This document shows positions 15,367-30,040 of a DNA stretch of 64,000 nt, in pieces. Where the stretch lies: assembly GCA_963724855.1 (NCBI GenBank), contig CAVRWH010000008.1:1360-65359 (forward strand). Reading direction: 5' to 3'. Every line of letters begins with the position of its first letter. Position 1 is the first letter of the stretch. The notes beneath the pieces were generated by a model. That model was not told the origin of the DNA. It did no database searches and was given only the letters and a program-made list of their open reading frames with translations. Source of the stretch: an uncultured Acidobacteriaceae bacterium (lineage in GTDB: Bacteria; Acidobacteriota; Terriglobia; Terriglobales; Acidobacteriaceae). Position numbers and translations under genes: made by a program.

Positions 15367-18300
15367 ATGCATGCACCACTACGCCGGTTCGTGACCGGTG
15401 TTATCGCCTACTGTCTGCTGAGCGCCGCCGGATGGGCGGACACACCCCAAGTTCGGGCCGAAGCGGCCAAGCTCAACAACCTGGGCGTTGCCATGATGAA
15501 CCAGCAACTGATGGAAAAGGCGACCGCCAAGTTCGACGAAGCATACAAGCTCGATCCCTCTCTGGCTGTGGCTGCGTTAAATAAGGGAATCGCCCTGCTG
15601 AATCAGCAGCGATTGCCCGAGGCTGAAGAAGCATTGCGTCAGGCGGAAGCGAAAGACCCAGACAATCCGCGGGTCTGGTACAACCTCGGGCTGGTCAATC
15701 GCGGGTCGGGAAACACAGCCGAAGCGATCAGCGACTTCCAGAAGGTGCTGAAGATCGATCCCACCGATCCCGATGCCTACTATTTTCTCGGGACGTTTTA
15801 CAGCCAGCAGCAGGAATATGCCAAGGCCATCGATGCCTTCCAGCAGGCGCTGAAGATCAACCCGCTGCACGCCTCTGCGGAATTTGGATTGGGACGCGCG
15901 CTGCAGCGTTCGGGTCAGCCCGACGAAGCGCGGGTACACCTGAAGCGCTTTGAATACCTGACGCACAACAAAATTTCTTCGGCGATCACGCTGACCTACG
16001 GCGAGCAGGGGAAGTACTCGGTGGCTCAGGACGTGATCACCAACGACCCGAGCGTGGGGCCGATGATTCCGGTGACGTTCGTGGCGCAGGCGCTGGGGAA
16101 GGGCGGCCTACACCCCGGGCAGGCGGCTGACGGACTAATAAGAATGTCCGGCGGCGGCGTGTGCCTTCTGGATGTTGACGGAGATGGCAAACTGGACGTT
16201 ATTTCGATGAGCCCGCAAGCGCCGCCCGTTCAGGTGTTTCGCAACCTGGGTAACGGCGAATGGAAGTTGCTGGGCGCGCTGGATACGGGTTTTCCAGCTA
16301 CGGGCACCGGCGTTTCGTGTGCCGTGGGCGACTATGACAACGACGGCAAGAACGACATTGCGATTGCGCTGAGTGACCGCATGGTGTTGTTCCACAATGA
16401 CGGTGGCGGCAAGTTTACCGACGTGACCGCGAAAGTTGGCATCACTTCACTCAACCAGCCTGCGGGTATGACGTGGGTGGACTACGACCACGACGGAGAC
16501 CTTGATCTGATTGTTACCGGCCAGCAGATCGCTGGGTTGAAGGACTCGACGAACAACGTCGTGTGGCGCAACAACGGCAACGGTACGTTTACGAATTGGA
16601 CGAAGGAGACTGGACTTGCGGGGGACGGCGCGACGACGAGCGTTGTTTTGTCGGACATTAACAATGACCGCGCAGTAGATTTATTGGTGACCGGAGCCAA
16701 CGCCGCGCCCACGGTTTATTTGAACCAGCGCGAAGGGCCTTTCAAGGCGATGCCGCTTTACGACGCGGCCGGACTCGCACCCACAACCGGCGTTTACATT
16801 CTCGACTACAACAAAGACGGCTGGATGGACGTGGCCCTTACCCATGCAGGTGCGCCGGGAGTGAGCCTTTGGCGCAACGTTGATGGAACGAAGTTCGAGC
16901 GCGTGAAGCTGCCCATCACTGACGCGACAAAGGGCTGGGGTATCACTGCCCTCGACTTCGACAACGATGGCTGGATCGATATCGCCGCGGTGGTCGAGAC
17001 GGCAAACGGCGCCGAGGTTGCGCGCCTTCCGCAATAAAGCCGCTCTAGGGTTCGAAGATGTCAGTGCGACGCTCGGGCTTGAAGAAGCTGAAGCTGCACG
17101 ATCCGCGAGCGGTGTTTGCCGCCGATCTCGACAATGATCTTGCAGCGGACCTCCTGGTAACGCAACTGGGGGGCGACCCAGTCGTACTCCACAACCAGGG
17201 CGGCAACAAGAACCACGCGCTGCGCATCGACTTCAAGGGTTTGGCGGACAACAAGACTGGCTTGGGGACAAAGGTCGAGGTCTTCTCTAACGGCACATGG
17301 CAGAAGTTTGAGGTTGCGGGCGGCGCGGGTTACCTGAGCCAGGGGCCGCCGGAAGTGCTCGCAGGGCTGGGCCAAAACACTAACGCCGACATCGTGCGAA
17401 TGCTGTGGCCCACGGGCGTGCTGCAAGACGAAATTGACGTTGCGGTGAACAAGCCGGCCTCGTTCCTGGAGCTCGACCGGCGCGGCAGTTCTTGTCCGAC
17501 GCTCTTCGCTTGGAACGGCGAGAAGTACGAGTTCGTCACCGACGTGATCGGCGCAGCCGTGATTGGACATTGGATTTCTCCCACATCGACGAACACGCCA
17601 GATCCTGACGAGTGGGTGAAGATCGACGGTACCAAGCTTCGCGCCAAAGACGGCTACCTGAGCGTGCGCTTCGGCGAGCCGATGGAGGAAGTGAACTACA
17701 TCGATCAACTGCGCATGGTGGCGGTGGACCATCCGGCGGACCTCGATGTTTATCCCGACGAACGCTTCCTTGACGACCCGCCATTCGCCAGCGGCAAAAC
17801 GGTGGCAACCTCGCAGCCGCATCCTCCGGTGGGCGCGTGGGACGGCCAGGGCCATGACGTGCTGCAATTGCTGAGCGCGCGCGATCACCAGTATGTTCGC
17901 GATTTCACCAACCTGCCTTACGCGGGCTTTGCCAATACCCACTCGCTGACGCTCGACCTCGGCGGGTGGACACCGCAGCAGCCGCTGCGGCTGTTCCTGA
18001 GCGGCTTTATCGAATATTTCAGCGCAACCTCGATGTATGCCGCATGGCAGGCGGGCCTGAAGCCAATCTCGCCATTCATCGAAGCGCAAATGCCCGACGG
18101 CAGCTGGAAACGGGTGGTCGATGAGATGGGATTCCCGGCGGGACTGCCGCGCACCATCGCGGTTGATCTGACCGGCAAGTTGCCGGCGGGAGCGCAGAAG
18201 ATCCGCATCACCTCGAACCTGCAGATTTATTGGGACGAAGTGCTGGTCGACAACGGGCCTGCGCGCGAGAGGGACGTGCGCACCACTGAGTTACCACTGG

Positions 18301-18831
18301 CAGCGGCGACGCTGGGCTTCCGCGGCTATCCGCGGCAAGTGGACGGCGCCACGCCCGGCGACCTGACCTACCGCTACGAAGAAGCCAGCATGACGGGGCC
18401 TTTCTCACGCTTCCGCGGTAGCTATACCGAGTACGGTGACGTGACGCCGCTGCTTACGTCGATCGACAACCAGTTTGCGATCTTCGGTACGGGCGAGGAC
18501 ATCGACGCCGAGTTCGACACTGCAGCGCTGCCAGCGCTGCCCAAGGGATGGAAGCGCGACTATTTCTTCTACGCCAACGGCTTCGTCAAGGACATGGATT
18601 TCTACGAGGCGATTCCGTTCACGGTCGCTGAGATGCCGTTCCATGGCATGAGCACGTATCCCTATCCCGCGACGCAGCACTACCCCGACGACCCACACGC
18701 CAACGGCTATCGCTTCGAGTGGAACGACCGCTTCGTGTCAGGCGCGAGCAAGGCGCTGGGCTATCGCTTCGTGTACGAGCAAGCGGACGATCGATCCCGA
18801 GCCGCTGACCCCGCACAAGAATTCACACTGA
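15367..18831 (+). pseudogene. TPR + FG-GAP/VCBS + UnbV/ASPIC (CRTAC1-family) protein with a long C-terminal extension; 2-3 apparent frameshifts
   Basis: Signal peptide, then TPRs (residues about 30-190). DxDxDG loops: LLDVDGDGKLDVI, VGDYDNDGKNDIAI, WVDYDHDGDLDLIV, ILDYNKDGWMDVAL, ALDFDNDGWIDIAA, AADLDNDLAADLLV. UnbV-like module: NHALRIDFKGLADNKTGLGTKVEVFSNG..GAGYLSQG. The link between ORF 15367-17037 and ORF 17058-19352 runs through a third frame (LRAFRNKAALGFEDVSATLGL), with shifts near 17010-17020 and 17072-17082. After about 18790 the ORF becomes R/G/A-rich and overlaps the next gene, so the true stop is probably 18806-18831. Confidence 0.75.
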
Positions 18832-18864
18832 CGACGTGCGCTCTGGAGGCGCCACCGGACAAGA

Positions 18865-21675
18865 ATGAAGAAGTTAGCTTTACTGTCGATTGCTGCGCTG
18901 ACGATTTCTGCCATCTACTTGTATGCATGGCCGGCGCCGAATGTGTTTTACGCCGCGGTGGTGTTGGGCCATGTCGGGCTCGGCGTGTTGTTCTGCATCG
19001 GCGGCTTGCGCCTGCTCCCAACGGCGATGCGCCAGCCGGTGATCGTGAAGCTGGCGACGCTGGTGCTGATCGTTGGTGCGGCGCTTGGATTGGTGCTGAT
19101 CTACACCGGCGCGGCGCGTCCCTATACGAAACTGTTGCTGACTCACGGAGCGGTGTCGTTCCTGGCAGTGGCGTTGCTGGCAGGGTGGTGGTACAGCCGC
19201 CGCAAAGAGTCGGGTGGCAGTGGGTGGATCCCGCCACTGGGCGCGGTTGCCGTGGCTGTCGTAATTACGCTGGGCGCGCAATACGCCCGAACTTCGTGGA
19301 GCAAGCGTTACGTCATTCGCAATCCCGAGATAGCGCCGCTGTCGATGAATAGCGAGGGCGGCGGCTCGCACGGCCCGTTCTTCCCCAGCTCGTCGCAGGT
19401 TGCGGGTGACCGGAAGATTCCGTCGAAGTTCTTCATGGAGTCGGACGCCTGCCAGCGCTGCCACCAGGACATTTACAAAGAGTGGCAAAGTTCGGCCCAT
19501 CACTTCTCGTCGTTCAACAATCAGTGGTATCGCAAGAGCGTCGAGTACATGCAGCAGGTTAACGGCGTGCAGGCGTCGAAGTGGTGTGCGGGTTGTCACG
19601 ATCCGGCGCTGCTCTACAGCGGCAAGATGGACATCCCCATCCAACAGATTGTGCACACTCCCGAAGCGCAGGCTGGCATGGGTTGCATGATGTGCCACTC
19701 GATCGTGCGGGTGAAGAGCACGATGGGGCAAGGCGACTTCATGCTGGAGTACCCGGAGCTACACGAACTCGCCGCCACCAAGAACCCCGTGCTGCGCTGG
19801 ATCCACGATTTCAGCATCAAGCTCAACCCCGAGCCGCATCGCCGCGTCTTCCTCAAGCCCTTTATGCAGAGCCAGACGCCGGAATTCTGCTCGTCATGCC
19901 ACAAGGTGCATCTTGACGTGCCGGTGAACAACTACCGCTGGCTGCGCGGCTTCAACGAATACGACAACTGGCAGGCTAGTGGCGTGTCCGGATTCGGCGC
20001 GCGCTCGTTCTATTACCCTCCGAAACCGCAAGGCTGCCAGGACTGCCACATGCCCGCTACAAATTCCGATGACATGGGCAACATTGCGGGCAAGATCCAT
20101 TCGCACTCCTTCCCCGCGGCCAACACGGCTCTGCCCACGGCCAACCAGGACGCGCGCCAGTTGGAAATGACAGAGAACTTCCTGAAAAGCGGCACGCTCA
20201 GCATCGACATCTTTGCGCTGTCGAATGCGTCGGCCAAGATCGGTGTGTCGGGGGGCCCGCAAACCGATTTGCAGACGACGTTCGCCGTGGGCGAAGAGTC
20301 CGAGATGAAGACCACGGGCGAATCCGCCGGGGTCGTCGCGCCCGTGACCGCTCCGCTGGACAAAGTGCAGGGAACGGTGCGCCGCGGCGAGAGCGCACGC
20401 ATCGACGTGGTGGTGCGCACGCGCAAAGTCGGACACTTCTTCCCTGGCGGGACCGTCGATGCTCCCGAGACATGGGTCGAATTGAAAGCCGTGGACGACA
20501 AGGGCCAGGTGATTTTCTGGAGTGGCAAGGCAGGCGATGACGGCAAGGGGCCGGTTGATCCCGGCGCGCACTTCTACCGCTCGCTGCAGATCGACGAGCA
20601 CGGTAACCCCATCAACAAACGCAATGCGTGGGCCACGCGCGCCGTGGTGTACGTGCGGCTGATACCTCCGGGTGCGGCTGACACCATTCACTACCGGATG
20701 AACGTGCCGCAGAATGCAGGCAGCAAAATCACGCTCACCGCGAAGTTGTGCTATCGCAAGTTCTCCTGGTGGAATACGCACTTCGCTTATGCAGGAGTCT
20801 CGCAACAACCGCCGGCTGCGCCGCAGACCGCCAAGAGCTATGACGATCGGCAATTTACTTTCGACGGCGACCTCAGCCAGGTTTCGGGCAAGCTGCATGA
20901 GATTCCCGAACTGCCCATCGTTGTCATTGCCGAAGACACCATTGAACTGAAGGTGTTGCCGAAGGGCGCGCCAGCCGACGCCCCCAAAACGATTGTCGAG
21001 AAAGCCGACTGGCAGCGCTGGAACGACTACGGCATCGGATTGTTCCTGCAAGGCGATTTCAAGGGAGCTGCAGCGGCGTGGGAGAAGGTGACTGAAGCTG
21101 ATCCCAACAATCCCGATGGTTGGGTGAACCTGGGCCGCGTTGCCGTGCAAGAGGGCGACATGGAGCGGGCCCGCGTCGTTCTCAACAAGGCGCTGGCTAT
21201 CGATCCCAATCTCGCGCGTGCAAACTATTTTTATGCCCGCGTATTGCGTTCTGACGGCGATTACGACGGCGCGGCGGCGCGCTTGTTCAAGGTGGCCGAG
21301 CAATATCCCAAGGACCGCGTGGTCCGCAACGACCTGGGACGCACGTACTTTTTGGCGCGCAAATATCCTGAGGCGATCGAACAACTCAAACTGGCGATCG
21401 CCGTCGATCCCGAAGACCTGCAAGCCAACTACAACCTCATGCTCTGCTACAAGGGGATGGGCGATGCGACGAAGGCGGCGGAGTATGAAAAGCTCTACCT
21501 GCGCTTCAAGGCTGATGAGTCATCGCAGGTCATTACCGGGCCGTATCGACGGCTACATCCCGAGGACAACAACGAACGCCAACTGATTCACGAGCACGGC
21601 TCCGCACCGCTCAAGCCGGCCAAGGCGCCGGTGGGCATCGCGGAGAAACACGCCGTGACTGCAGGAGGCAAGTAA
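18865..21675 (+). CDS. membrane-anchored pentahaem c-type cytochrome fused to C-terminal TPR repeats
   Basis: Five N-terminal TM helices (residues about 4-140). Five CxxCH motifs: CQRCH 19450-19464, CAGCH 19585-19599, CMMCH 19684-19698, CSSCH 19888-19902, CQDCH 20045-20059. C-terminal TPRs (WQRWNDYGIGLFLQGDFKGAAAAWEKVTEADPNNPDGWVNLGRV...). GGAGG lies upstream of the ATG. Confidence 0.85.
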   Translation: MKKLALLSIAALTISAIYLYAWPAPNVFYAAVVLGHVGLGVLFCIGGLRLLPTAMRQPVIVKLATLVLIVGAALGLVLIYTGAARPYTKLLLTHGAVSFLAVALLAGWWYSRRKESGGSGWIPPLGAVAVAVVITLGAQYARTSWSKRYVIRNPEIAPLSMNSEGGGSHGPFFPSSSQVAGDRKIPSKFFMESDACQRCHQDIYKEWQSSAHHFSSFNNQWYRKSVEYMQQVNGVQASKWCAGCHDPALLYSGKMDIPIQQIVHTPEAQAGMGCMMCHSIVRVKSTMGQGDFMLEYPELHELAATKNPVLRWIHDFSIKLNPEPHRRVFLKPFMQSQTPEFCSSCHKVHLDVPVNNYRWLRGFNEYDNWQASGVSGFGARSFYYPPKPQGCQDCHMPATNSDDMGNIAGKIHSHSFPAANTALPTANQDARQLEMTENFLKSGTLSIDIFALSNASAKIGVSGGPQTDLQTTFAVGEESEMKTTGESAGVVAPVTAPLDKVQGTVRRGESARIDVVVRTRKVGHFFPGGTVDAPETWVELKAVDDKGQVIFWSGKAGDDGKGPVDPGAHFYRSLQIDEHGNPINKRNAWATRAVVYVRLIPPGAADTIHYRMNVPQNAGSKITLTAKLCYRKFSWWNTHFAYAGVSQQPPAAPQTAKSYDDRQFTFDGDLSQVSGKLHEIPELPIVVIAEDTIELKVLPKGAPADAPKTIVEKADWQRWNDYGIGLFLQGDFKGAAAAWEKVTEADPNNPDGWVNLGRVAVQEGDMERARVVLNKALAIDPNLARANYFYARVLRSDGDYDGAAARLFKVAEQYPKDRVVRNDLGRTYFLARKYPEAIEQLKLAIAVDPEDLQANYNLMLCYKGMGDATKAAEYEKLYLRFKADESSQVITGPYRRLHPEDNNERQLIHEHGSAPLKPAKAPVGIAEKHAVTAGGK

Positions 21676-21682: not shown

Positions 21683-23407
21683 ATGAATCTCATACGAAAG
21701 TCATCATCTCTTTTTCTTATGTGCGCGGTGCTGGTCTCCGCCGCAGCGGCGCAGGTCACGTTCAAAGACATCACCAAACAGGCGGGCATCACCTTCGTCC
21801 ACAACAGTGGTGCGGTGGGAAAGAAGTGGCTGCCGGAGACCATGGGAATCGGTTGCGCCTTCATCGATTACGATAATGACGGCTACCCCGACATCCTTCT
21901 CGTCAACGGCAAAGACTGGAATGCGACCGGCAAGGGTTCGACGCTGAAGCTCTATCACAACAATCGCAACGGCACGTTCACTGACGTGACTGCGAAAGCC
22001 GGGCTGGCGATCTCCCTCTACGGGATGGGCGCGGCCGTGGCTGATTACGACAACGACGGCTATGACGACATCTATGTTTCTGCCCTGGGTCAGAGCCACC
22101 TGTTCCACAACAACGGCAACGGCACATTTACCGATGTCACCAAGTCCGCGGGCATGATGGGCCCCAACGAATTCAGCACCAGCGCGGCGTGGTTCGATTA
22201 CGATCGCGACGGCAAGCTTGACCTGATCGTCGTCAATTACGTGCAGTGGACCCCGCAGGGCGACATCTACTGCACACTCGATGGCACGCACAAGTCGTAC
22301 TGCACTCCTGAGTCGTACAAGGGAGCGTCGGTGCGTTTGTGGCACAACCTCGGCAACGGAAAGTTCGAAGACGCCACCGCGAAGGCTGGCCTCTTCGACA
22401 ACTCGTCAAAGTCGCTGGGCGTAGCCGTGCTCGATGTGAACAACGACGGCTGGCCTGATCTGGTGATCGCCAACGATACCCAGCCCAACAAGCTCTACGT
22501 GAACAATACCAAGGGAGGCTTCACCGAGTCGGCCGTCTCGGCGGGGATCGCCTTCAGCGAAGACGGAGTGGCGCGCGCCGGCATGGGCGTCGATGCGGCC
22601 GACTACGACCACACAGGGCGGCCGAGTATTGTCATCGGCAACTTTGCCAACCAGATGCTGGCGCTGTACCACAACGAAGGCAACGGTCTGTTCGTGGATG
22701 AAGCGCCACGCTCCGAGATCGGGCGCCGCAGCCTGCTGACGCTGGGCTTTGCCACTCTATTCTTTGACTACGATAACGATGGCTGGGTCGATATCTTCGT
22801 CGCCAACGGTCACATCGAGAATGAAATCGAGCGCATCCAGAAGCGTGTGCACTATGCAGAGTCGCCGCACCTGTTTCACAACTTGGGCAAGGGAAAGTTT
22901 GCCGACGCGACGCAGGCGGTTGGGCCGGAACTCGGTACGCCACGTGTCGGGCGAGGCGCCGCTTATGCCGACATCGACAACGATGGCGACCTCGATCTGT
23001 TGATGACCACCAACGCCGGTCCTGCTGTGCTGTTCCGCAATGACGGCGGCAACAGCAACAAGAGCCTCCGCATTAAGCTGGTGGGCACGCGGTCGAACCG
23101 TGACGGAATCGGAACGATGGCCGTCGTCAAGGCCAATGGCGACCGCCAGACGCAAATGCTGCGCAGTGGATCAGGCTACCTGTCGTCGAGCGAACTCGTG
23201 CTGACCTTTGGGTTGGGCAAGGCCGCGCAGGCCGACGAGATCGAGTTGCGTTGGCCCAGCGGACAGGTGGACAAGCTCTATAAAGTCGCTGCGGGGCAAA
23301 CTGTCACCGTCAAGGAAGGTTCAGGCATCGTGCAGCAGAGGGCATTTGGGGCAGCGCCGCCTCCAGCGGCGACGGCTGTGGCCACGCCGCACAAGACTGC
23401 GAAATGA
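21683..23407 (+). CDS. CRTAC1-family protein (FG-GAP/VCBS repeats + UnbV/ASPIC)
   Basis: Signal peptide. Seven DxDxDG loops (FIDYDNDGYPDILL, VADYDNDGYDDIYV, WFDYDRDGKLDLIV, VLDVNNDGWPDLVI, FFDYDNDGWVDIFV, YADIDNDGDLDLLM...). UnbV-like module SLRIKLVGTRSNRDGIGTMAVV..GSGYLSSSE..IELRWPSG. Confidence 0.85.
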   Translation: MNLIRKSSSLFLMCAVLVSAAAAQVTFKDITKQAGITFVHNSGAVGKKWLPETMGIGCAFIDYDNDGYPDILLVNGKDWNATGKGSTLKLYHNNRNGTFTDVTAKAGLAISLYGMGAAVADYDNDGYDDIYVSALGQSHLFHNNGNGTFTDVTKSAGMMGPNEFSTSAAWFDYDRDGKLDLIVVNYVQWTPQGDIYCTLDGTHKSYCTPESYKGASVRLWHNLGNGKFEDATAKAGLFDNSSKSLGVAVLDVNNDGWPDLVIANDTQPNKLYVNNTKGGFTESAVSAGIAFSEDGVARAGMGVDAADYDHTGRPSIVIGNFANQMLALYHNEGNGLFVDEAPRSEIGRRSLLTLGFATLFFDYDNDGWVDIFVANGHIENEIERIQKRVHYAESPHLFHNLGKGKFADATQAVGPELGTPRVGRGAAYADIDNDGDLDLLMTTNAGPAVLFRNDGGNSNKSLRIKLVGTRSNRDGIGTMAVVKANGDRQTQMLRSGSGYLSSSELVLTFGLGKAAQADEIELRWPSGQVDKLYKVAAGQTVTVKEGSGIVQQRAFGAAPPPAATAVATPHKTAK

Positions 23408-24823
23408 CGATAAGTCCCGTCACGCAACAGTCGGCGGTAGAACTACTGGCGCTTCTGCGAACGCGTAAGATTTCGGCACTGGAGCTGGCCGACGAATACA
23501 TTCGCCAAATCGAGCGACTGAATCCGACAATTAACGCGCTGGTGGATTTCGACGCCGAACGTGTCAAGCAGCAGGCGCGCGCGATAGATCAATCGTCCAC
23601 TCCGCACGGCTTATTGGCCGGACTTCCAGTGACAGTGAAGTCGTCGATCTCAACCGCAGGCTATCGCTGCGAGATCGGCAGCGTAGTCAATCGCGGAAGC
23701 ATTCCGGCAAGAGATGCAACGGTCGTAGCGCGGCTGCGAGCTGCGGGCGCGGTGATTCTCGGCACGACCAACTGCCCTGAATATCTGATGGCTTATGTCA
23801 CCGACAATCTGTTGCACGGGCGAACAAACAATCCTTGGAACCTCGACTACACGCCGGGTGGCTCGAGCGGCGGCGAATCGGCTGCGATTGCAGCCGGAAT
23901 GTCCGCGGGAGGACTGGGCAGCGACAGCGGCGGTTCGGTGCGCGTACCGGCGCACTTCACCGGCATCTGTTCACTGAAACCGACACCGGGGCGTATCCCC
24001 GGCGTTGGCCACCTGCCCCCGTGCATCGGCCCATTTTCGTTCCTCGGAGCAATCGGCCCCATGGCGCGTACCATCGGCGACGTGACGCTGTTGTTTCGAG
24101 TACTGTCAGGACAGGATCCAATCGATCCCGCAAGTCCGCCGCTTGCGTTGCGTACTCCGAGCCTCGAAGAGGCGAGACGGCTGCCGATTGGCTACTTCGA
24201 AGACGACGGCTTGGTGCCGGTGACTCGGGAGACGCGGATAGCTATTCAAGCGGCCTCCGGCGCGCTTCGCGAAGCCGGTTTTGATGTTCGTCCGTTTCGT
24301 CCCAACGCACTCGAGCCCGCCCGCAAGCTGTGGGAGCTGTTCTTCCTGCGCTGCGGCGCGATGTTTGAGGAGCCACTGGTTCGGGGCCACGAAGACCAGC
24401 TCAGCCCCGTTTTTCGCGACTTTCTGACGCGGGCGCACGCCGCCGGGCCGCTTACCGCTGAAGAAGTGCTGACGGCGTGGGCCGAAGCAGACATTATTCG
24501 CAGCAAGCTGTTGGCCCAGATGCAGGAGTTCCCGCTGCTGCTGTGCCCGGTCGCTTCGGTGCCGGCGTTTCGCCACGACGAGCGAAGCTGGACGATCGAC
24601 GGCGAGCCGGTCGAATACCTCGACGCCATGCGCTATTCGCAGTGGTTCAATTTGCTGGCCGCGCCCGCAGCGGTCGTGCCGGTTGGCCGCTCGCCCGAGG
24701 GCACTGCCCATCGGCGTGCAGATCGTGGGCCGCCCATTCGAAGACGAAACCGTGCTAAAGGTCGCGTCGGTGATCGATGAAGCGTTTGGCTATCAACCGC
24801 CGCCAATCTCCAATCCTGACTAA
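23404..24823 (+). pseudogene. amidase-signature family enzyme (GatA-like); one apparent frameshift near 24703
   Basis: Signature GGSSGGESAAIAAGMSAGGLGSDSGGSVRVPA and an upstream catalytic Lys region (PVTVKSSI). The start overlaps the upstream stop (ATGA 23404-23407). After the shift, frame +1 gives the family-typical end LPIGVQIVGRPFEDETVLKVASVIDEAF..., with stop TAA at 24821-24823. Confidence 0.8.
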
Positions 24824-24841
24824 GCTGCGATAATAAAATCT

Positions 24842-26629
24842 TGGACTCTCGACTCATGCACGACTTCCGTACGCCTGCGCACGGGCCTGGCCCTTTTTCT
24901 GACCGTGCTGACGACTTATAACGCCTTCTCCCAAGCTCACTCCGTTGCCCCACCTCCGCCACCGGGGGCCAAGAATGTGGTGTGCAAAGACCGGGCCATT
25001 CCGCAACTCGTCGACGTCACCGAAAAGACTGGCATCAAGTTCACGCACGTTGCCGATCCCGACAAGAAGTACATCGTCGAGTCGATGGGCGGCGGCGTGC
25101 TCGTTCTCGACTACGACCGTGACGGCTGGCCTGACATCTACTTCACCAACGCGCCAACAGTCGCCATGGCGCTCAAGAACCAGCCCGCACGCGGCGCGCT
25201 CTATCACAACAATCACGACGGCACCTTTACCGATGTGACCGACAAAGCTGGCGTCGCCACGCCCTGCTTTGCCATGGGCGGTGCGGTAGGCGACTACAAC
25301 AACGATGGCTGGCCCGACATGGTCATCACCTGTCTCGGCCACACGATTCTCTACCGCAACAACGGCGACGGCACGTTTACCGACGTCACCAAGCAGGCGG
25401 GCATCGACGATCCCCGCTGGTCTACCGGCGCTTCTTTCGGCGATTACGACAACGACGGCTTCGTGGACCTGATGGTCACCCGCTACGTGGACTTCCAGTT
25501 GACCGACCTGCCGCAGTTCGGCAGCAGCCCTACCTGTAAGTATCGCGGCATCGACGTGCAGTGCGGACCGCGCGGGTTGCGCGGTGCTGGCGACTCGCTC
25601 TACCACAACAATGGCGATGGCACATTCACCGACGTCAGCAAGCAGGCGGGTGTAGACGATCCTCGCGGCTACTACGGACTGGGCGTCTTGTGGGCTGACT
25701 TCGACAACAAAGGGCGTCCCGACATCTACGTCGCCGACGACTCCACGCCGAAGTACCTCTACCGCAATGACGGCAACGGCAAGTTCACGGATATCGGACT
25801 TGAGTCAGGCACCGCAGTGAGCGCCGACGGCTCCGAGCAGGGCTCGATGGGCATTGCCCTCGGAGACTACATCCACAACGGGCTGCCGTCGCTGTACGTG
25901 ACCAACTTCGCCGACGAGTACAACATTCTTTACCTCAACCAGGGTGGCTACGATTTCCGCGATGTCTCGTACGACTCGGGCGTCGCGGTGGCCGCGCTGC
26001 CGTGGGTGAAGTGGGGCACCGCCTTCTTCGATCTCGATAATGACGGCTGGCTCGACCTGATCTCGGTCAACGGGCAGGTGTATCCGCAGGTGGATCAGTT
26101 GCCCTCTGGAGCGCGCTATCGTCAGCCCAAGAACCTCTTCATGAACCAGCGCAACGGCAAGTTCTGCGATGCGCAGACGCAGGCCGGTCCGGCGCTGCAG
26201 ATTCCCCGCGTCAGCCGCGGGCTGGCCATCGCCGACCTCGACAACGACGGCAACGTGGACATCGTCATCGCCGACCTCGACGGCGAGCCCATGATTCTGC
26301 ATAACCAGGGACTGCCCGGAAAGCACTGGGTGAGCTTCGAGTTGGCGGGAACCAAGAGCAATCGCCTGGCGATCGGAGCAAAACTCAAGCTGGTTGCCGG
26401 AGGCATGACGCAAACAGCCCAGATATTCAGCGGCGGCAGCTATCTTTCCAACCACGACTTCCGCGTGCACTTCGGCCTAAACGACGCCACCAAGATTGAT
26501 TCGCTGGAAATCAAGTGGCCGTCCGGCAAGGTCGAAACGATTACCAACCTGAAGCCCGACCAGTTTTATTCGGTATTGGAAGGCAGCGGCATCGTCGATC
26601 GCGACAAGATCGTGCCGAAGAAGAAGTAA
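24842..26629 (+). CDS. CRTAC1-family protein (FG-GAP/VCBS repeats + UnbV/ASPIC)
   Basis: DxDxDG loops (VLDYDRDGWPDIYF, VGDYNNDGWPDMVI, FGDYDNDGFVDLMV, FFDLDNDGWLDLIS, IADLDNDGNVDIVI). UnbV-like module HWVSFELAGTKSNRLAIGAKLKL..SGGSYLSNHD..LEIKWPSG. The supplied ORF starts at GTG 24905. In-frame TTG 24842 would add the signal-peptide n-region (RLRTGLALFLTVLTTYNAFSQA). Confidence 0.85.
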   Translation, partial: WTLDSCTTSVRLRTGLALFLTVLTTYNAFSQAHSVAPPPPPGAKNVVCKDRAIPQLVDVTEKTGIKFTHVADPDKKYIVESMGGGVLVLDYDRDGWPDIYFTNAPTVAMALKNQPARGALYHNNHDGTFTDVTDKAGVATPCFAMGGAVGDYNNDGWPDMVITCLGHTILYRNNGDGTFTDVTKQAGIDDPRWSTGASFGDYDNDGFVDLMVTRYVDFQLTDLPQFGSSPTCKYRGIDVQCGPRGLRGAGDSLYHNNGDGTFTDVSKQAGVDDPRGYYGLGVLWADFDNKGRPDIYVADDSTPKYLYRNDGNGKFTDIGLESGTAVSADGSEQGSMGIALGDYIHNGLPSLYVTNFADEYNILYLNQGGYDFRDVSYDSGVAVAALPWVKWGTAFFDLDNDGWLDLISVNGQVYPQVDQLPSGARYRQPKNLFMNQRNGKFCDAQTQAGPALQIPRVSRGLAIADLDNDGNVDIVIADLDGEPMILHNQGLPGKHWVSFELAGTKSNRLAIGAKLKLVAGGMTQTAQIFSGGSYLSNHDFRVHFGLNDATKIDSLEIKWPSGKVETITNLKPDQFYSVLEGSGIVDRDKIVPKKK

Positions 26630-28325
26630 CGCCTATTTCTTTCCCACGGCCAGCGGTGGTAACGGCCGTCGATTCTTTGATTCCCGCGCCCTCTACCACC
26701 GTATGAATCGCGTCGGCGGCAACGTTTTTCAATTCTTCCGTGTTGCCGTTGGGCCAGCGGATCACAACTTTCTCGATCTTTGCGGTATCGGGCCCCAGAC
26801 CGAAGTGCAGCCGCAGATCGCTCTGCGAGACATAACTGTTGCCACCCTTGACCTCGCGCAGCTGGGTCACTCCGCCTGCCGTAATCGTTACGCGCGCTCC
26901 GATGGCTGCCTTGTTGCTCTTCGTTCCCACCAGCTTGAACATCACACGATGGTTCGCGTTCTTCGAGTCGTTCAGCAGGATGGACGGCGGTTCGCCCACG
27001 TTGAACACCACGGCATCGATGTTGCCGTCATTGTTCAAGTCTCCATAGGCCACGCCGCGGTGCGATTGCATCGACTCGTCATTTACGCCAGATGCGTCGC
27101 TCACATTGTCGAATGCCTTCTTGCCCGTGTTGCGGAAAACCATCATCGGCTCGCGAAAGCCCGGTTCGCCCGGCAGCGTGTCGATAGCGGTGTAGATGTG
27201 TCCGGCGGCAACCATGATGTCAGGCCAGCCGTCGTTGTCGAAGTCAGCGAAGCCCGTGCCCCACTTCACCCAGCGAAACGTCGCCTGTCCCAGCTTGGCC
27301 GCCCAGGTAATGTCGTTAAACTCGTCACCCTGGTTGTGAAAAAGGTTGTCAGGCTGATACGCGAACGTTGCGACAGTGATGTCGAGTTTGCCGTCGCGGT
27401 CGAAGTCTCCAGCGTCCACGCCCATTGAGCCCATGGCCTTGCCCTCGGCACTTACCGCCGCGCCCGATAGCAGCGCCAGGTCCTCAAAGGTTCCGTCGTG
27501 CTTGTTGCGATACAGGTAGCTCGGTTCAGTATCGTTGCCGACAAACAGGTCCGGCCAGCCGTCGTTGTCGAAGTCGCCCCAGACCACGCCCAGCCCCAGC
27601 CGGCCCTCAGGGTCGCCCACTCCGGCTTTCTTCGACACCTCTTCAAACGTGCCGTCGCCGCGGTTGTGAAACAGGAAATCGGTCTCGCCTGACATGCCCC
27701 ACGGCGCTTCGACAACCAGCCCTTTGTAGTCGGTGTGAATCGGCGGCAGGTTCTTCGCGTCGGTGTGAATGTATCGCGAGACGAACAGATCGACGTTGCC
27801 GTCGCGGTCGTAGTCACCCCAGGCCGCGCCGGTGCTAAAGCCGCCACCAACCACGCCCGCCTTTTCCGTCACGTCTTCAAACTTACAGTTGCCGAGATTG
27901 TGATACAGCGCGTTGCCGCCGTACCCGGTGACATACAAATCGGGCAAGCCATCATTGTCGTAGTCAGCTACGGCCAGCCCCATGCCCCAGCCTTTGCGGG
28001 TAAGTCCGGCCGACTTGGTGATGTCGGCGAACTTGAATCCTTCGCCCTGGTGGTAGAGCGTTACCATCAGGTCACCGCCTGCCTTGTAGCCTTCGATGGT
28101 AGAGGGCGTGACCGCGGCAATATCGAGCTTGCCGTCGTTGTCGCAATCAAACAGCGCCACGCCGCCAGCCATCTGCTGCACGATGTACTTCATCTCCGCT
28201 GGAGGTTTGGTGCCGGGCACACGCAGACCGGCCTCTTTGTTGGCGTTATGAAAATGGATGGGAGCGGCCTGGCCAAACGCCGACGACAATGACAAGCTCA
28301 ACAGCGCGAGAGAAGCCAGACGCAT
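26541..28325 (-). CDS. CRTAC1-family protein (FG-GAP/VCBS repeats + UnbV/ASPIC); 3' end doubtful
   Basis: Signal peptide MRLASLALLSLSLSSAFGQA. DxDxDG loops (LFDCDNDGKLDIAA, VADYDNDGLPDLYV, WGDYDRDGNVDLFV, WGDFDNDGWPDLFV, FADFDNDGWPDIMV, YGDLNNDGNIDAVV). UnbV-like module HRVMFKLVGTKSNKAAIGARVTI..GGNSYVSQSD..VVIRWPNG. The last 30 or so codons overlap the convergent gene by 89 bp. One base fewer in the A run at about 26637-26642 would end the protein at ..GRGKK* (stop complement of 26633-26635). Confidence 0.85.
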   Translation of the reverse strand: MRLASLALLSLSLSSAFGQAAPIHFHNANKEAGLRVPGTKPPAEMKYIVQQMAGGVALFDCDNDGKLDIAAVTPSTIEGYKAGGDLMVTLYHQGEGFKFADITKSAGLTRKGWGMGLAVADYDNDGLPDLYVTGYGGNALYHNLGNCKFEDVTEKAGVVGGGFSTGAAWGDYDRDGNVDLFVSRYIHTDAKNLPPIHTDYKGLVVEAPWGMSGETDFLFHNRGDGTFEEVSKKAGVGDPEGRLGLGVVWGDFDNDGWPDLFVGNDTEPSYLYRNKHDGTFEDLALLSGAAVSAEGKAMGSMGVDAGDFDRDGKLDITVATFAYQPDNLFHNQGDEFNDITWAAKLGQATFRWVKWGTGFADFDNDGWPDIMVAAGHIYTAIDTLPGEPGFREPMMVFRNTGKKAFDNVSDASGVNDESMQSHRGVAYGDLNNDGNIDAVVFNVGEPPSILLNDSKNANHRVMFKLVGTKSNKAAIGARVTITAGGVTQLREVKGGNSYVSQSDLRLHFGLGPDTAKIEKVVIRWPNGNTEELKNVAADAIHTVVEGAGIKESTAVTTAGRGKEIGVTSSSARSCRDRRCRCLPIPNKTGRASGW

Positions 28326-28456
28326 AAAATTGATCGTGGGTAGCGAGGTTACCGTTTCATTCTAGCTTACCCACGGCGGCGGCTCCGGCCATACCTTGAC
28401 ACCGATTCCAAGCCCCACATAACCTGCCAATAGCTCCCTCCAAGGTCTGTAATCGA

Positions 28457-30040
28457 ATGTTTCCTTTCGAATTTGCGCGCTTCCGTCCATTACGCTCGCA
28501 TCCATCTCGCAATTGGATGCTTTGCCGGCTGGCTCTCGTCCTGCTGGCGATATGGACCCCTGGGATCGCCGCACAGGATTACAACCTTACCGCGGTGGAG
28601 GCCCTCATTCGCCAGGCGAAACTCGATGACGCCGACCGGCAATTGCAGGCGATCCTGCGGACCCAGCCAAACAATTCTCGCGCAATCGCACTGCTAGGCA
28701 CAGTGCGCCGCCAGCAGGGAAACTGGCCCGAAGCCGAATCGCTGTATCGCCGCGCCGTTGCCGCCAACCCAAAGTCTCTCGATGCGTGTCAAGACCTCGC
28801 TGCACTGCTGCGCGATGAGGCCCGCTGGCCGGAAACAGTTGAGCAGTACGAGTCCTGTCGCAGATTGGCGCCCCGGAATTTCGCTATCGCGGCCGATTTG
28901 GCTGCCGCATACGAGAAAAACGGCGACCCCGCAAAGTCGCTGGCCACGGTGGCGGCGATTCCGTCCGCTGCGCGCCCGACGAGCGTGCTGCCTGTGATTG
29001 CTGCCGACTTCGTGGCCACCAACCAGCCGCAGAAGGCCGATGCTGCCATCGCCGAAGTGCTGCGCCATGCCGCTGCTGATCCTGCCATCGTTCCAGCCCT
29101 GGCCAACAGCCTTCTCGATCACGGTATGGTTGACGATGCCGCACATTTGTTACGCGTCGCGCAACCGCTTCAGACATCGACTCCCGTGTTTCTGGCGACA
29201 CTGGCCAAAGTGCAGGCCGCCAGCGGCAATACCCAGGAAGCGCGCCAGACTTTCGACAAAGCAATTCGTCTCGATCCCAAGTCGCAGGACGTGCTGGCCG
29301 CCGGGGTCGCCCTTGCCATTCGCTGGGCCCAATGGGACAAGGCGCTGGAGTTTCTCGATTCGGCGCTCGCGGCCGGCCCGCCACGTACCGACCTGCTGCA
29401 GAGCGTGGTCTTCGTTGAATTGCGCAAGAATGACCTCCAAGCCGCCCACGGCATTGCGGAACGGTGGTACACGCTGCGCCCGGAAGAGACCGCCAGCGTA
29501 CTGGCGTTTGCCATTGTGCTGGTCGAGGGCAATCACTGGGGCGAAGCCAAGCCCCTGCTGGAGAAGGTTCTCGCCAAGTCTCCCAACGACAAGGGCGCAG
29601 CACTGGCGATGGGCGTGGTGCAATACAACGCCGGCAACCTTCCCGCGGCCACTAAGTATTTGACCTCCGCTCTCGGCGGCGGCCCTGACGACGCCAACGC
29701 TCATTACTTTCTGGGTCTCATCGCCAAGCAGGAGGGCAACTTTTCCTCCGCCATCACTCAGATGGAGCAATCGGTCGCCATCCGCTCGAATAACCCAAAG
29801 GCATTAGGTCAGCTCGGGCAGCTTTATTTGCAGCAGAATGATCTGCCCAAGGCCCGAGCGTCGTTGGAAACGGCTATCGCGCAGTCCCCGGAGGAGCCGC
29901 AAAACCACTACGAACTGGCACGCGTCTACAACAAACTCGGCCTGAAGGACGAAGCCGAAGCGCAACTCAAGCTCTACCAGAAGCTGCGCCCTCAGCGTCC
30001 ACAGTCGCCCGAGGGAGAAGCTCCTCCGCGGTCCCAGTAA
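28457..30040 (+). CDS. tetratricopeptide-repeat protein (exported)
   Basis: Consecutive TPR units across the whole length (e.g. ALLGTVRRQQGNWPEAESLYRRAVAANPKS, HYFLGLIAKQEGNFSSAITQMEQSVAIRSNNPKA, HYELARVYNKLGLKDEAEAQLKLY). The hydrophobic N-terminus MLCRLALVLLAIWTPGIAA suggests an alternative ATG at 28517. Confidence 0.85.
   Translation: MFPFEFARFRPLRSHPSRNWMLCRLALVLLAIWTPGIAAQDYNLTAVEALIRQAKLDDADRQLQAILRTQPNNSRAIALLGTVRRQQGNWPEAESLYRRAVAANPKSLDACQDLAALLRDEARWPETVEQYESCRRLAPRNFAIAADLAAAYEKNGDPAKSLATVAAIPSAARPTSVLPVIAADFVATNQPQKADAAIAEVLRHAAADPAIVPALANSLLDHGMVDDAAHLLRVAQPLQTSTPVFLATLAKVQAASGNTQEARQTFDKAIRLDPKSQDVLAAGVALAIRWAQWDKALEFLDSALAAGPPRTDLLQSVVFVELRKNDLQAAHGIAERWYTLRPEETASVLAFAIVLVEGNHWGEAKPLLEKVLAKSPNDKGAALAMGVVQYNAGNLPAATKYLTSALGGGPDDANAHYFLGLIAKQEGNFSSAITQMEQSVAIRSNNPKALGQLGQLYLQQNDLPKARASLETAIAQSPEEPQNHYELARVYNKLGLKDEAEAQLKLYQKLRPQRPQSPEGEAPPRSQ

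What the first reader, a model, noticed from the sequence alone, without database searches (positions are those of the whole stretch)
15367..30040. Seven-gene cluster of CRTAC1 paralogs, a pentahaem cytochrome, TPR proteins and an amidase, with no assigned function
Seen:
- Five co-directional genes (15367-26629) are separated by about 33, 7, -4 and about 18 bp. A convergent fourth paralog (26541-28325) and a divergent TPR gene (28457-30040) follow.
- Four proteins share one architecture: a signal peptide, about seven DxDxDG calcium-loop repeats (e.g. FIDYDNDGYPDILL, VADYDNDGYDDIYV, WFDYDRDGKLDLIV) and a C-terminal UnbV/ASPIC-like module (..LRIKLVGTRSNRDGIG..GSGYLSSSE..LRWPSG).
- The first paralog also carries N-terminal TPRs and a C-terminal extension of about 470 aa.
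- Embedded among them are a membrane-anchored 5 x CxxCH cytochrome with its own TPR tail, and an amidase-signature enzyme translationally coupled to the upstream paralog (ATGA 23404-23407).

Established: bacterial CRTAC1/ASPIC-UnbV proteins are widespread, but to my knowledge none has an experimentally defined role. CxxCH marks covalent c-type haem.

Inference: this is an exported, Ca-dependent beta-propeller/TPR assembly wired to a membrane haem relay. It would act as an envelope redox or extracellular-substrate-processing system and appears undescribed.
Basis: partly seen in the sequence, partly recalled or inferred. Interest (0 to 1): 0.75.

Follow-up and report, generated by a model that had tools for sequence, protein, structure and literature searches.

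The report
Cytochrome–CRTAC1 propeller operon of soil Acidobacteria
A membrane-anchored five-haem cytochrome is encoded back-to-back with calcium-binding CRTAC1-type propeller proteins and an amidase, an arrangement kept across many Terriglobia (soil Acidobacteria), so the genes almost certainly work together, although nobody has described what they do.

Summary
At least five single-base indels break the first paralog (three), the amidase (one) and the third paralog (one), and a sixth may affect the fourth.

A four-gene core is conserved, not the seven-gene cluster. It is: long TPR-CRTAC1 with a beta-sandwich extension, then TM-pentahaem-TPR cytochrome, then short CRTAC1, then amidase. Koribacter versatilis has this core intact and in the same order. 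About 45 other Terriglobia genomes carry the same four genes in a different order.

A CRTAC1 gene is the next gene after the cytochrome in nearly all of 69 genomes, usually overlapping its stop by 4 or 1 nt. This linkage holds down to about 50% cytochrome identity. It is absent in four relatives at 44-49% identity, including Poribacteria.

The cytochrome is not NrfA/HAO-like. Its periplasmic part is homologous to the Thermochromatium tepidum pentahaem c552 (PDB 5ZE8), whose function is also unknown. Five conserved extra histidines fit bis-His electron-transfer haems.

The locus sits among LacI, TonB-receptor and glycoside-hydrolase genes.

I read it as a conserved, undescribed envelope redox module. 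Its chemistry is unknown.

The parts
15367..18831 (+). Long CRTAC1 paralog, about 1150 aa if repaired. It has a signal peptide, TPRs, an FG-GAP/VCBS propeller, UnbV_ASPIC and a roughly 440-aa all-beta extension. It is broken by three +1 insertions near 17019, 17082 and 18778.
   Evidence: Pfam. Frame analysis. tblastn of the Koribacter 1127-aa ortholog gives frame 1 for 15385-17019 and frame 3 for 17076-18794. DNA alignment to L003 locates the insertions. The stop TGA is at 18829-18831. The extension model has pLDDT 82.6 and is all beta strand.
18865..21675 (+). Pentahaem c-type cytochrome, 936 aa. It has five N-terminal TM helices, five CxxCH motifs, a conserved beta-rich domain and a C-terminal TPR tail.
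   Evidence: The family has at least 8000 close hits and 3345 clusters at 50% identity with E<1e-3.
18865..19302 (+). Membrane anchor, residues 1-146, with five predicted helices. His36 and His94 are nearly invariant across the family.
   Evidence: AlphaFold helices at 2-21, 27-55, 59-81, 85-113 and 122-146. His36 is kept in 69/75 and His94 in 71/75 diverse representatives. No significant Pfam family matches.
19450..20049 (+). Haem-binding core. CxxCH motifs lie at 19450-19464, 19585-19599, 19684-19698, 19888-19902 and 20035-20049.
   Evidence: Motif positions. All Cys and His of the five motifs are invariant in 75 diverse representatives, as are His212, His325, His414 and His524; His569 is kept in 64/75. 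A profile of this region matches PDB 5ZE8 with E 1.8e-9.
21001..21522 (+). TPR tail of the cytochrome, residues about 713-886.
   Evidence: Pfam TPR families. AlphaFold helices 713-886 at high pLDDT. Foldseek matches MamA, OGT and consensus TPR proteins.
21683..23407 (+). Short secreted CRTAC1 paralog, 574 aa. This is the member that is conserved directly downstream of the cytochrome.
   Evidence: Pfam FG-GAP_3 (7 stretches) and UnbV_ASPIC. Six Dx[DN]x[DN]G loops. Human CRTAC1 (PDB 9ETN) matches with E 1.6e-25. Orthologs at about 66-84% identity follow the cytochrome in related genomes.
23404..24823 (+). Amidase-signature hydrolase with no signal peptide. Its start overlaps the upstream stop (ATGA). 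One frameshift lies near 24700.
   Evidence: Pfam Amidase E 9e-89. All NCBIfam amidase models score below their cut-offs. Frames; stop position. The motifs VTVKSS, GGSSGG and DSGGSVR are visible in the translation. Best solved relative is 5H6S, E 1.5e-50.
24856..26629 (+). Third CRTAC1 paralog. The start codon and first codons are in another frame, with an indel between 24856 and about 24872.
   Evidence: The L084 ortholog is 74% identical and occupies the same position after the amidase.
26541..28325 (-). Fourth CRTAC1 paralog, convergent. It did not recur beside the cytochrome in relatives. Its C-terminal tail may be frameshifted.
   Evidence: Pfam. Seven calcium loops. An alternative ending in another frame is shown. 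Synteny.
28457..30040 (+). Secreted all-TPR protein, 527 aa. It was found in no related locus (singleton cluster).
   Evidence: Pfam TPR families only. It forms a singleton in the locus clustering.
30189..31268 (-). LacI-family regulator (context). The longer ORF on the opposite strand, 30171-31463(+), is spurious.
   Evidence: Pfam LacI, Peripla_BP_1 and Peripla_BP_3. The + strand ORF has no family hit and a nonsense-like composition. LacI genes occupy the same relative place in Koribacter and L084.
31645..35172 (+). TonB-dependent receptor of the CarboxypepD_reg type (context).
   Evidence: Pfam OMP_b-brl_4 E 4e-160, CarboxypepD_reg and Plug. The same kind of gene flanks the cluster in Koribacter and L084.

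Best explanation
The region holds a conserved Terriglobia envelope module with a four-gene core.
1. A long secreted protein: TPR, then a CRTAC1 calcium propeller, then UnbV_ASPIC, then beta-sandwich modules.
2. An inner-membrane pentahaem c-type cytochrome: five TM helices, a periplasmic haem domain and beta domain related to T. tepidum c552, then a TPR tail.
3. A short secreted CRTAC1 propeller translated in tandem with the cytochrome.
4. A cytoplasmic amidase-signature hydrolase.

Shown here: the domain content, the homology to c552, the conservation and tight coupling of the genes, and the glycan-utilisation neighbourhood.

Inferred: the cytochrome is an electron wire, not a catalyst, because every haem has a conserved candidate second histidine. 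It may connect through its membrane domain (two near-invariant histidines) to the quinone pool or to a haem b. Its TPR tail, and the TPRs of the long paralog, would dock the propellers. The propellers and their CBM-like beta-sandwich modules would face the substrate. On this reading the module couples binding or conversion of an extracytoplasmic organic substrate to respiratory electron transfer. That substrate is perhaps glycan-derived or nitrogen-containing. A product would be taken up and hydrolysed by the amidase.

The two further CRTAC1 paralogs and the separate TPR gene are lineage-specific additions from a much-expanded family. The frameshifts are most likely assembly errors.
For: - Domains.
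- Same order and same 4-nt overlap in Koribacter versatilis Ellin345 at 68% cytochrome identity, and in L084.
- The same four genes recur in three layouts across 80 species-level genomes. The extension-bearing long paralog is present in 45 loci. An amidase is adjacent in 34 of 54 loci with 6 kb on both sides.
- A CRTAC1 ORF starts within 450 nt of the cytochrome stop in 56 of 69 loci. 42 of those overlap the stop by 4 or 1 nt.
- The linkage is still present at 50% identity (L088).
- All five CxxCH motifs plus His212, His325, His414 and His524 are invariant, and His569 is kept in 64/75 diverse representatives. TM His36 is kept in 69/75 and His94 in 71/75.
- A profile of the periplasmic part hits 5ZE8 at E 1.8e-9. 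It is collinear over haems 1-3; the later matches at haem 5 and the GHxFPGG beta domain are individually insignificant.
- There is no CxxCK and no NrfA/HAO match.
- The five TM helices are predicted with confidence.
- The extension is all beta, with weak CBM/discoidin/APC10-like matches.
- Neighbours are LacI regulators, TonB receptors, GH5, GH2 exo-glucosaminidase-like, GH116, GH94 and sugar transporters.
- An independent case of a CRTAC1 gene lying between multihaem genes exists in hydrazine-synthase homologue clusters (PMC12758564).
Against: - No result here shows contact or electron flow between the cytochrome and a propeller.
- CRTAC1 proteins have no known cofactor or redox activity.
- The cytochrome family occurs without any CRTAC1 or amidase neighbour in four relatives at 44-49% identity. 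It therefore has a propeller-independent role.
- The amidase changes position between layouts and is missing in about a third of loci.
- The amino-acid permease seen in layout B is absent from the window, and the Koribacter permease is not its ortholog.
- The haem domain could not be modelled (pLDDT below 50), so haem ligation and the fold match to c552 rest on sequence alone.
- The TM domain matches no known quinol- or haem-b-binding family.
Confidence: 0.45

Rival explanations
1. Co-regulated but mechanistically separate. The TM-pentahaem-TPR protein would be a general respiratory or periplasmic electron-transfer component, as in phyla where it stands alone. The CRTAC1 paralogs would be calcium-dependent glycan- or matrix-binding envelope proteins of a carbohydrate-utilisation locus. 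Adjacency would then reflect shared regulation or export, not electron transfer to the propellers.
For: - The cytochrome occurs without CRTAC1 in four distant contexts.
- CRTAC1 paralogs also occur elsewhere in the same loci, next to GH genes and away from any cytochrome.
- The family is highly expanded in Acidobacteria; ASPIC/UnbV appears among the paralog families of Solibacter (PMC3174227).
- The extension resembles carbohydrate-binding jelly rolls, weakly.
- LacI, TonB-receptor and GH genes are neighbours.
Against: - A 4- or 1-nt stop/start overlap between the cytochrome and the short CRTAC1 is kept in 42 of 56 genomes.
- One specific orthologous CRTAC1 lineage is involved. It stays about 66-84% identical across genomes, versus about 41-43% between paralogs. 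This is more than shared regulation usually preserves.
- The pair stays together when the surrounding genes change (L083, L088).
Confidence: 0.27
2. Extracellular electron transfer. The cytochrome would act like Geobacter ImcH or CbcL, an inner-membrane quinol oxidase that passes electrons outward. The propellers would help deliver them to Fe(III), humic substances or another insoluble acceptor.
For: - The architecture (TM anchor plus a periplasmic multihaem domain with bis-His-type haems) is that of a quinol-linked relay.
- Its solved relative belongs to the pentahaem family that includes Geobacter ExtK and GSU2801 (PMC11976967).
- Weak Pfam similarity to MtrC/MtrF domain II/IV, 26-29 bits against a cut-off of 30.
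Against: - No porin-cytochrome or outer-membrane cytochrome genes lie in the window cluster or in the conserved layouts.
- Hosts include organisms that, from my own knowledge, are aerobes: Koribacter and Poribacteria.
- The neighbours are sugar-utilisation genes, not metal-respiration genes.
Confidence: 0.1
3. In this particular genome the cluster is decaying. On this view the five or six indels are real mutations. The long paralog, the amidase and the third paralog would then be pseudogenes, leaving only the cytochrome and the short CRTAC1 functional.
For: - Three genes (possibly four) are interrupted.
- The deposited public gene call for the identical cytochrome starts at Met161 (P0027, 776 aa). 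So the run-on upstream ORF is present in the public record too, not only in this window.
Against: - The interrupted genes otherwise match orthologs along their full length at 56-74% identity, with no premature stops inside any frame segment.
- Three +1 insertions in one gene sum to a restored frame.
- About one indel per 2 kb, confined to single bases, is what an unpolished long-read assembly gives.
- Many public homologs of the extension on very large contigs are likewise truncated to 450-750 aa.
Confidence: 0.1

Closest known systems
Thermochromatium tepidum low-potential pentahaem cytochrome c552 (PDB 5ZE8) and the 'PHC' pentahaem family (Geobacter ExtK, GSU2801, cable-bacteria sPHC)
   Same: Both have five c-type haems. 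A profile-to-sequence match (E 1.8e-9) covers haem motifs 1-3. Weaker, individually insignificant collinear matches cover the last haem motif (CQxCHMP) and the C-terminal beta domain (GHxFPxG). Function is unknown for both (PMC11976967).
   Different: c552 is a soluble 435-residue chain in the PDB entry. The protein here adds a five-helix membrane anchor with two conserved histidines, about 100 extra residues in the beta region, and a roughly 220-aa TPR tail with a conserved C-terminal tail. Sequence similarity is remote. No structural superposition was possible because the AlphaFold haem domain had pLDDT below 50.
CRTAC1 / ASPIC-UnbV family (human CRTAC1, PDB 9ETN; bacterial 'CRTAC1 family protein')
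   Same: An FG-GAP/VCBS calcium propeller followed by UnbV_ASPIC, with a signal peptide and 5-7 Dx[DN]x[DN]G loops. 9ETN matches with E 1.6e-25.
   Different: The short paralog here is an orthologous lineage translationally coupled to a multihaem cytochrome. The long paralog adds N-terminal TPRs and a roughly 440-aa beta-sandwich extension with no Pfam or PDB sequence match. No bacterial member has a defined function in the papers I could search.
Hydrazine-synthase-homologue gene clusters that enclose a CRTAC1 family gene (PMC12758564)
   Same: A CRTAC1-type FG-GAP propeller gene sits between or beside genes for haem c proteins, some of which carry cytochrome c554-type multihaem domains.
   Different: The haem proteins are different (HZS alpha and beta-gamma homologues with their own propellers), as are the taxa. 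There is no TM-anchored pentahaem-TPR protein and no amidase. The function there is also unknown.
Geobacter inner-membrane multihaem quinol oxidoreductases ImcH and CbcL (functional analogy, from my own knowledge)
   Same: A membrane-embedded N- or C-terminal helical domain is fused to a periplasmic multihaem c domain that relays electrons between the quinone pool and periplasmic partners.
   Different: No sequence relationship was detected. NapC/NirT scores 19-21 bits, below its cut-off of 24.1. The TM domain matches no HydC/FdnI-type family. Haem number and accessory domains differ.
PQQ-dependent periplasmic dehydrogenases with dedicated c-type cytochromes (functional analogy, from my own knowledge)
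   Same: A calcium-binding periplasmic beta-propeller is genetically paired with a c-type cytochrome that could carry its electrons to the membrane.
   Different: CRTAC1 propellers belong to the FG-GAP/VCBS supercluster, not the PQQ propellers. No PQQ-family hit and no cofactor-biosynthesis genes were seen. This is an analogy only.

Membership tests
CRTAC1 / ASPIC-UnbV family | Repeated FG-GAP/VCBS blades forming a propeller | tested here: met
   PF13517 FG-GAP_3 matches with E 3e-47 to 6e-55 and 5-7 stretches in all four paralogs.
CRTAC1 / ASPIC-UnbV family | UnbV_ASPIC module C-terminal to the propeller | tested here: met
   PF07593 scores above its cut-off in 17058-19352, 21683-23407, 24905-26629 and 26541-28325(-).
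CRTAC1 / ASPIC-UnbV family | Dx[DN]x[DN]G calcium loops | tested here: met
   5, 6, 5 and 7 motifs in the four paralogs. Calcium binding itself was not tested.
CRTAC1 / ASPIC-UnbV family | Sequence similarity to the solved human CRTAC1 | tested here: met
   9ETN matches with E 1.6e-25.
Pentahaem cytochrome family of T. tepidum c552 (PHC) | Five CxxCH motifs in the conserved order | tested here: met
   Five motifs, invariant in 75 diverse representatives.
Pentahaem cytochrome family of T. tepidum c552 (PHC) | Significant homology to the solved member | tested here: met
   phmmer E 7.7e-4. A profile of 12 diverse haem domains gives E 1.8e-9.
Pentahaem cytochrome family of T. tepidum c552 (PHC) | Same three-dimensional haem packing and C-terminal Ig-like domain | tested here: inconclusive
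   The AlphaFold haem domain has pLDDT below 50 and Foldseek returned only TPR hits. Only weak collinear sequence matches cover the beta domain.
Catalytic multihaem enzymes (NrfA, HAO, octahaem reductases, MccA) | A catalytic haem with a special ligand or open site (CxxCK, Tyr cross-link) and a family-level sequence match | tested here: not met
   No CxxCK. PF02335 Cytochrom_C552 does not match the window protein, and matches only 2 of 12 relatives at E of about 8e-4. PDB MccA E 0.64 and MccSep E 6e-3. Five conserved non-motif histidines are available as sixth ligands.
NapC/NirT/CymA quinol dehydrogenases | Match to the NapC/NirT tetrahaem domain with a single N-terminal helix | tested here: not met
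   PF03264 scores 19.4-20.9 bits against a cut-off of 24.1, over 17 residues only. The protein has five TM helices, not one.
Amidase signature (AS) family | PF01425 match and the Lys / cis-Ser / Ser motifs (GGSSGG, GGS[IV]R) | tested here: met
   E 9e-89 over 27-434. The motifs VTVKSS, GGSSGG and DSGGSVR are present in the translation.
Amidase signature (AS) family | Assignment to a substrate-specific equivalog (GatA, AtzE, allophanate hydrolase, indoleacetamide hydrolase and so on) | tested here: not met
   All NCBIfam models score below their cut-offs. The best is PRK06170 at 294.6 bits against 503. The best PDB relative is 5H6S, E 1.5e-50.
Conserved operon (functional gene cluster) | Gene adjacency kept across divergent genomes | tested here: met
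   The linkage is limited to relatives at or above about 50% cytochrome identity.
Conserved operon (functional gene cluster) | Co-transcription | not testable with these tools
   Only indirect evidence is available: 4-nt and 7-nt junctions, and no convincing terminators.

The most novel reading that the evidence does not exclude
Bacterial CRTAC1-type calcium propellers are the substrate-facing subunits of a previously unrecognised periplasmic oxidoreductase system. A dedicated, TPR-docked pentahaem cytochrome would carry electrons between a propeller-bound substrate or cofactor and the respiratory chain. This would give Terriglobia, among the most abundant soil bacteria, a redox route for processing complex organic matter. 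It would also give the CRTAC1 family its first biochemical function.
Probability: 0.17. Interest if true: 0.85.

Novelty: new variant of a known kind. Interest (0 to 1): 0.55.

Why it matters
- CRTAC1/ASPIC-UnbV proteins are numerous in Acidobacteriota, Planctomycetota and Bacteroidota. I found no bacterial member with a defined function.
- The TM-pentahaem-TPR cytochrome family is also large: at least 594 matched stretches in the species-representative genome collection, and 3345 clusters at 50% identity. It is annotated only as 'tetratricopeptide repeat protein'.
- A conserved, translationally coupled pairing of the two gives a concrete, testable handle on both families.
- The handle exists in a cultured organism. 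Koribacter versatilis Ellin345 carries the intact four-gene core.
- If the pairing reflects electron transfer, it would add a new kind of envelope redox module to the carbon metabolism of dominant soil bacteria.
- If it does not, the work still re-annotates a large 'TPR protein' family as membrane-anchored pentahaem cytochromes related to T. tepidum c552.

Tried and rejected
1. AlphaFold2 of the whole cytochrome with 73 homologs. The TM and TPR parts were confident but the haem domain was below pLDDT 50. The Foldseek search returned only TPR proteins and said nothing about the haem fold or the membrane domain.
2. PDB profile search with the full-length alignment was swamped by TPR hits. I repeated it with a trimmed, more diverse haem-domain alignment.
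3. Pfam on the isolated TM domain at E up to 10 gave only sub-threshold noise. DUF2231 appeared twice, at E 0.03 and 0.6. I rejected this as evidence for any family.
4. The extension domain has no Pfam, NCBIfam or PDB sequence hit. Its good AlphaFold model gave only weak Foldseek matches (best E 1.7e-4, TM 0.2-0.45) to jelly-roll/CBM-like modules. I treat this as a hint of ligand binding, not as a family assignment.
5. Rfam found no RNA family in the window. The promoter/terminator scan was uninformative: promoter-like sites were at chance level and no convincing terminator lay between the genes.
6. I considered the amino-acid permease of layout B as a fifth core gene. I rejected it for this window: there is no homolog in the 64 kb, and the Koribacter permease is unrelated (26% over 65 aa).
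7. I considered the 430-aa ORF 30171-31463(+) as part of the cluster and rejected it as spurious. The real gene there is a LacI regulator on the other strand.
8. Literature searches for CRTAC1 plus cytochrome plus Acidobacteria, UnbV/ASPIC, multihaem plus TPR, and Koribacter plus multihaem found no description of this operon.
9. MAG titles such as Binatia, Verrucomicrobiia, Udaeobacter, Limnocylindrales and Eremiobacteraceae appear among the close hits. I did not take them as evidence of a wider taxonomic range, because these short soil-MAG contigs may be mis-binned.

Full report
**What is in the window.**
The mechanical ORF list does not give seven clean genes.
- 15367-17037 carries TPRs and FG-GAP repeats.
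- A separate ORF, 17058-19352, starts with the last propeller blade and UnbV_ASPIC. It then runs 488 nt into the next gene.
- Pfam finds FG-GAP_3 and UnbV_ASPIC in the three other paralogs (21683-23407, 24905-26629, 26541-28325 on the minus strand). It finds Amidase (E 9e-89) in 23404-24780 and only TPR families in 28457-30040.
- In 18865-21675 it finds TPR families plus a weak Cytochrome_C554 match.

**Frameshifts.**
Three-frame translation of the junctions, tblastn with intact orthologs and a DNA alignment to a relative show that the first paralog is one gene. Three +1 insertions, near 17019, 17082 and 18778, push it through all three frames.
- The amidase shifts frame near 24700 and really ends at 24823.
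- The third paralog starts at ATG 24856 and shifts frame within a few codons.
- The fourth paralog has an odd 45-residue tail and an 89-nt convergent overlap, which another indel near 26690 would explain.

The identical cytochrome in the public record is called from Met161 (P0027). This is what a gene caller would do when the run-on upstream ORF blocks the true start.

I think these are assembly errors. The broken genes match orthologs end to end, and the changes are all single bases, about one per 2 kb. I could not test this.

**The cytochrome.**
- It has exactly five CxxCH motifs.
- AlphaFold2 predicts five N-terminal helices (residues 2-146, pLDDT about 80-88) and a good TPR tail. It fails on the haem domain.
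- The family is very large. At least 8000 proteins pass E<1e-10 in the word-indexed search. The exhaustive search finds 3345 clusters at 50% identity with E<1e-3, of which 805 pass 1e-30.
- The TM-haem-beta-TPR architecture is kept in relatives at about 30-40% identity to the query.
- In 75 diverse representatives, all cysteines and histidines of the five motifs are invariant. So are His212, His325, His414 and His524. His569 is kept in 64, and the membrane histidines His36 and His94 in 69 and 71.
- Five extra conserved histidines for five haems is what a bis-His electron-transfer chain needs. There is no CxxCK.
- The only significant solved relative is the T. tepidum pentahaem c552, 5ZE8. It matches at E 7.7e-4 with the single sequence and 1.8e-9 with a profile of trimmed, diverse haem domains. 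The significant stretch covers haems 1-3. Weaker, individually insignificant collinear matches follow at the last haem and the GHxFPGG beta domain.
- Next come c554 (E 2e-4) and MccSep (E 6e-3). NrfA, HAO, MccA and NapC/NirT are not matched at their thresholds.
- That c552 belongs to a 'PHC' family with Geobacter ExtK and GSU2801 and cable-bacteria cytochromes. Its function is not known (PMC11976967).

**The other proteins.**
- The short paralogs are ordinary CRTAC1 family members. They have 5-7 calcium loops and match human CRTAC1, 9ETN, with E 1.6e-25.
- The extension of the long paralog has no Pfam, NCBIfam or PDB sequence match. It has 1350 homologs; the hits long enough to include the upstream region all carry UnbV_ASPIC.
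- Its AlphaFold model is good (pLDDT 82.6, pTM 0.84) and all beta. Foldseek gives only weak matches to jelly-roll modules such as APC10/Doc1, CBM16/29/35 and discoidin. I read it as two or three ligand-binding beta sandwiches, with low confidence.
- The amidase has the AS motifs and no signal peptide, but reaches no substrate-specific NCBIfam cut-off.

**Conservation.**
Koribacter versatilis Ellin345 (cytochrome 68% identical) has the following order, with the same 4-nt amidase overlap:
- long paralog (1127 aa)
- cytochrome (942 aa)
- short CRTAC1 (573 aa)
- amidase (466 aa)

A metagenomic contig (L084) shows the same order followed by an ortholog of the third paralog, a LacI gene and a TonB receptor. 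That is the window's layout minus the fourth paralog and the TPR gene.

It returned the best 80 loci, almost all Terriglobales or other Acidobacteriota. tblastn and my own ORF clustering show three layouts:
- **A**, as in the window.
- **B**, about 45 loci: amidase, cytochrome, short CRTAC1, long CRTAC1, then usually an APC-type permease.
- **C**, about 9 loci: histidine kinase, NarL-type regulator, CRTAC1, cytochrome, CRTAC1.

Counts:
- The extension-bearing long paralog is present in 45 loci.
- A same-strand CRTAC1 ORF starts within 450 nt of the cytochrome stop in 56 of 69 loci with enough flank. In 42 of these the overlap is 4 or 1 nt.
- Most of the remaining 13 are cases where my greedy ORF picker chose an antisense ORF. 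tblastn still finds the CRTAC1 there.
- The downstream CRTAC1 is one orthologous lineage, about 66-84% identical across genomes. Paralogs within the window are about 41-43% identical to one another.

**Limits of the linkage.**
- At 50% cytochrome identity the pair is still together, in an unrelated neighbourhood (L088).
- At 49, 48.6, 46 and 44% identity there is no CRTAC1 or amidase beside the cytochrome. The 46% case is Poribacteria.
The cytochrome has a role that does not need a propeller, and the pairing is a lineage-specific elaboration.

**Neighbourhood.**
- In the window, the gene after the TPR protein is a LacI regulator on the minus strand, 30189-31268. The longer plus-strand ORF there is spurious.
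- It is followed by a CarboxypepD_reg-type TonB receptor, a large TPR protein, a GFO/IDH/MocA oxidoreductase and a GH5.
- Related loci carry LacI regulators, TonB receptors, GH5, GH116, GH94, GH2 exo-beta-glucosaminidase-like enzymes, melibiase and sugar transporters.
- This points to a carbohydrate-utilisation setting, but it does not say what the module does.

**How it most likely works.**
- Shown: the domain content, the membrane anchoring, homology to c552, conservation and tight coupling.
- Inferred: the cytochrome is a relay rather than a catalyst. Its membrane domain may link it to quinones or hold a haem b. The TPR surfaces dock the propellers. The propellers and the beta-sandwich extension face the substrate. 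The cytoplasmic amidase acts on an imported product.
- I put 0.45 on this modest form (a physically and functionally coupled envelope redox module).
- I put about 0.17 on the stronger form, in which CRTAC1 propellers are true redox partners.

An independent hint that CRTAC1 genes keep company with haem proteins comes from hydrazine-synthase homologue clusters (PMC12758564).

The main rival (0.27) is co-regulation without electron transfer to the propellers. Extracellular electron transfer (0.10) and real gene decay in this genome (0.10) are lesser rivals.

**Novelty and verdict.**
Every domain is known, and the proteins are already in databases under uninformative names. The fused TM-pentahaem-TPR architecture and its conserved operon with CRTAC1 propellers are not described in any paper I could find.
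- Novelty: a new variant of a known kind.
- Interest: 0.55. The finding is not a surprise in kind, but it gives a testable lead on two large uncharacterised families, in a cultured organism.

Noticed in passing
window ~17019, ~17082, ~18778, ~24700, 24856-24872, possibly ~26690: Five or six single-base indels lie within about 10 kb of coding sequence, roughly one per 2 kb. This looks like an unpolished long-read assembly. The public gene call for the same cytochrome starts at Met161 because of the run-on upstream ORF (P0027). Many public homologs of the long paralog on megabase contigs are likewise cut to 450-750 aa.
   Followed up: partly
window 30171-31463 (+) versus 30189-31268 (-): The longest ORF here (430 aa, + strand) has no family hit and a nonsense-like sequence. 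The real gene is a LacI-family regulator on the minus strand.
   Followed up: yes
window 31645-39984: Downstream genes are a CarboxypepD_reg-type TonB-dependent receptor (31645-35172), an 815-aa TPR protein (35241-37688), a GFO/IDH/MocA oxidoreductase (37695-38738, minus strand) and a GH5 cellulase-family enzyme (38875-39984). This is a glycan-utilisation-like neighbourhood that recurs next to the cluster in Koribacter and L084.
   Followed up: partly
window 14620-15366: A stretch of about 750 nt upstream of the first paralog has no convincing gene and no Rfam match. It is a likely promoter/regulatory region, but the sigma-70 consensus scan found nothing useful there.
   Followed up: partly
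window 13318-14619 (-): This 433-aa protein has a MacB-like periplasmic core domain and a partial match to the acidobacterial ADOP duplicated permease family (model length 803). It ends in a Cys-rich, zinc-ribbon-like motif. It may be a truncated or variant ADOP gene, and it supports an Acidobacteriota origin.
   Followed up: no
window 9741-10697 (-) and 7207-9057 (-), 11637-13286 (+): A molybdopterin-binding oxidoreductase-domain protein (sulfite-oxidase/YedY type) lies here, flanked by a CHASE3-PAS histidine kinase and a hybrid PAS histidine kinase/response regulator. I did not examine it for any link to the cluster.
   Followed up: no
cytochrome residues 876-911 (window ~21490-21597): After the TPRs there is a tail (RFKADE...HPEDNNERQxIHEH) that is almost invariant among close relatives and semi-conserved in distant ones (Pro899 in 49/75, His909 in 48/75, His911 in 51/75). 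AlphaFold leaves it unstructured. It could fold back on the haem domain or bind a partner.
   Followed up: partly
L085 6-7.5 kb and L086 6.2-8 kb (Poribacteria and another distant lineage): In two of the distant contexts, the cytochrome homolog is preceded by the same pair of genes, a FAA_hydrolase-family gene and a short-chain dehydrogenase. This suggests a different conserved partnership outside Acidobacteriota.
   Followed up: no
L068, L071, L075-L080, L082 (layout C): In one branch (cytochrome about 59-61% identical overall), the cytochrome is flanked by CRTAC1 genes on both sides. It is preceded by a histidine kinase and a NarL-type response regulator, which hints at dedicated two-component control.
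   Followed up: partly
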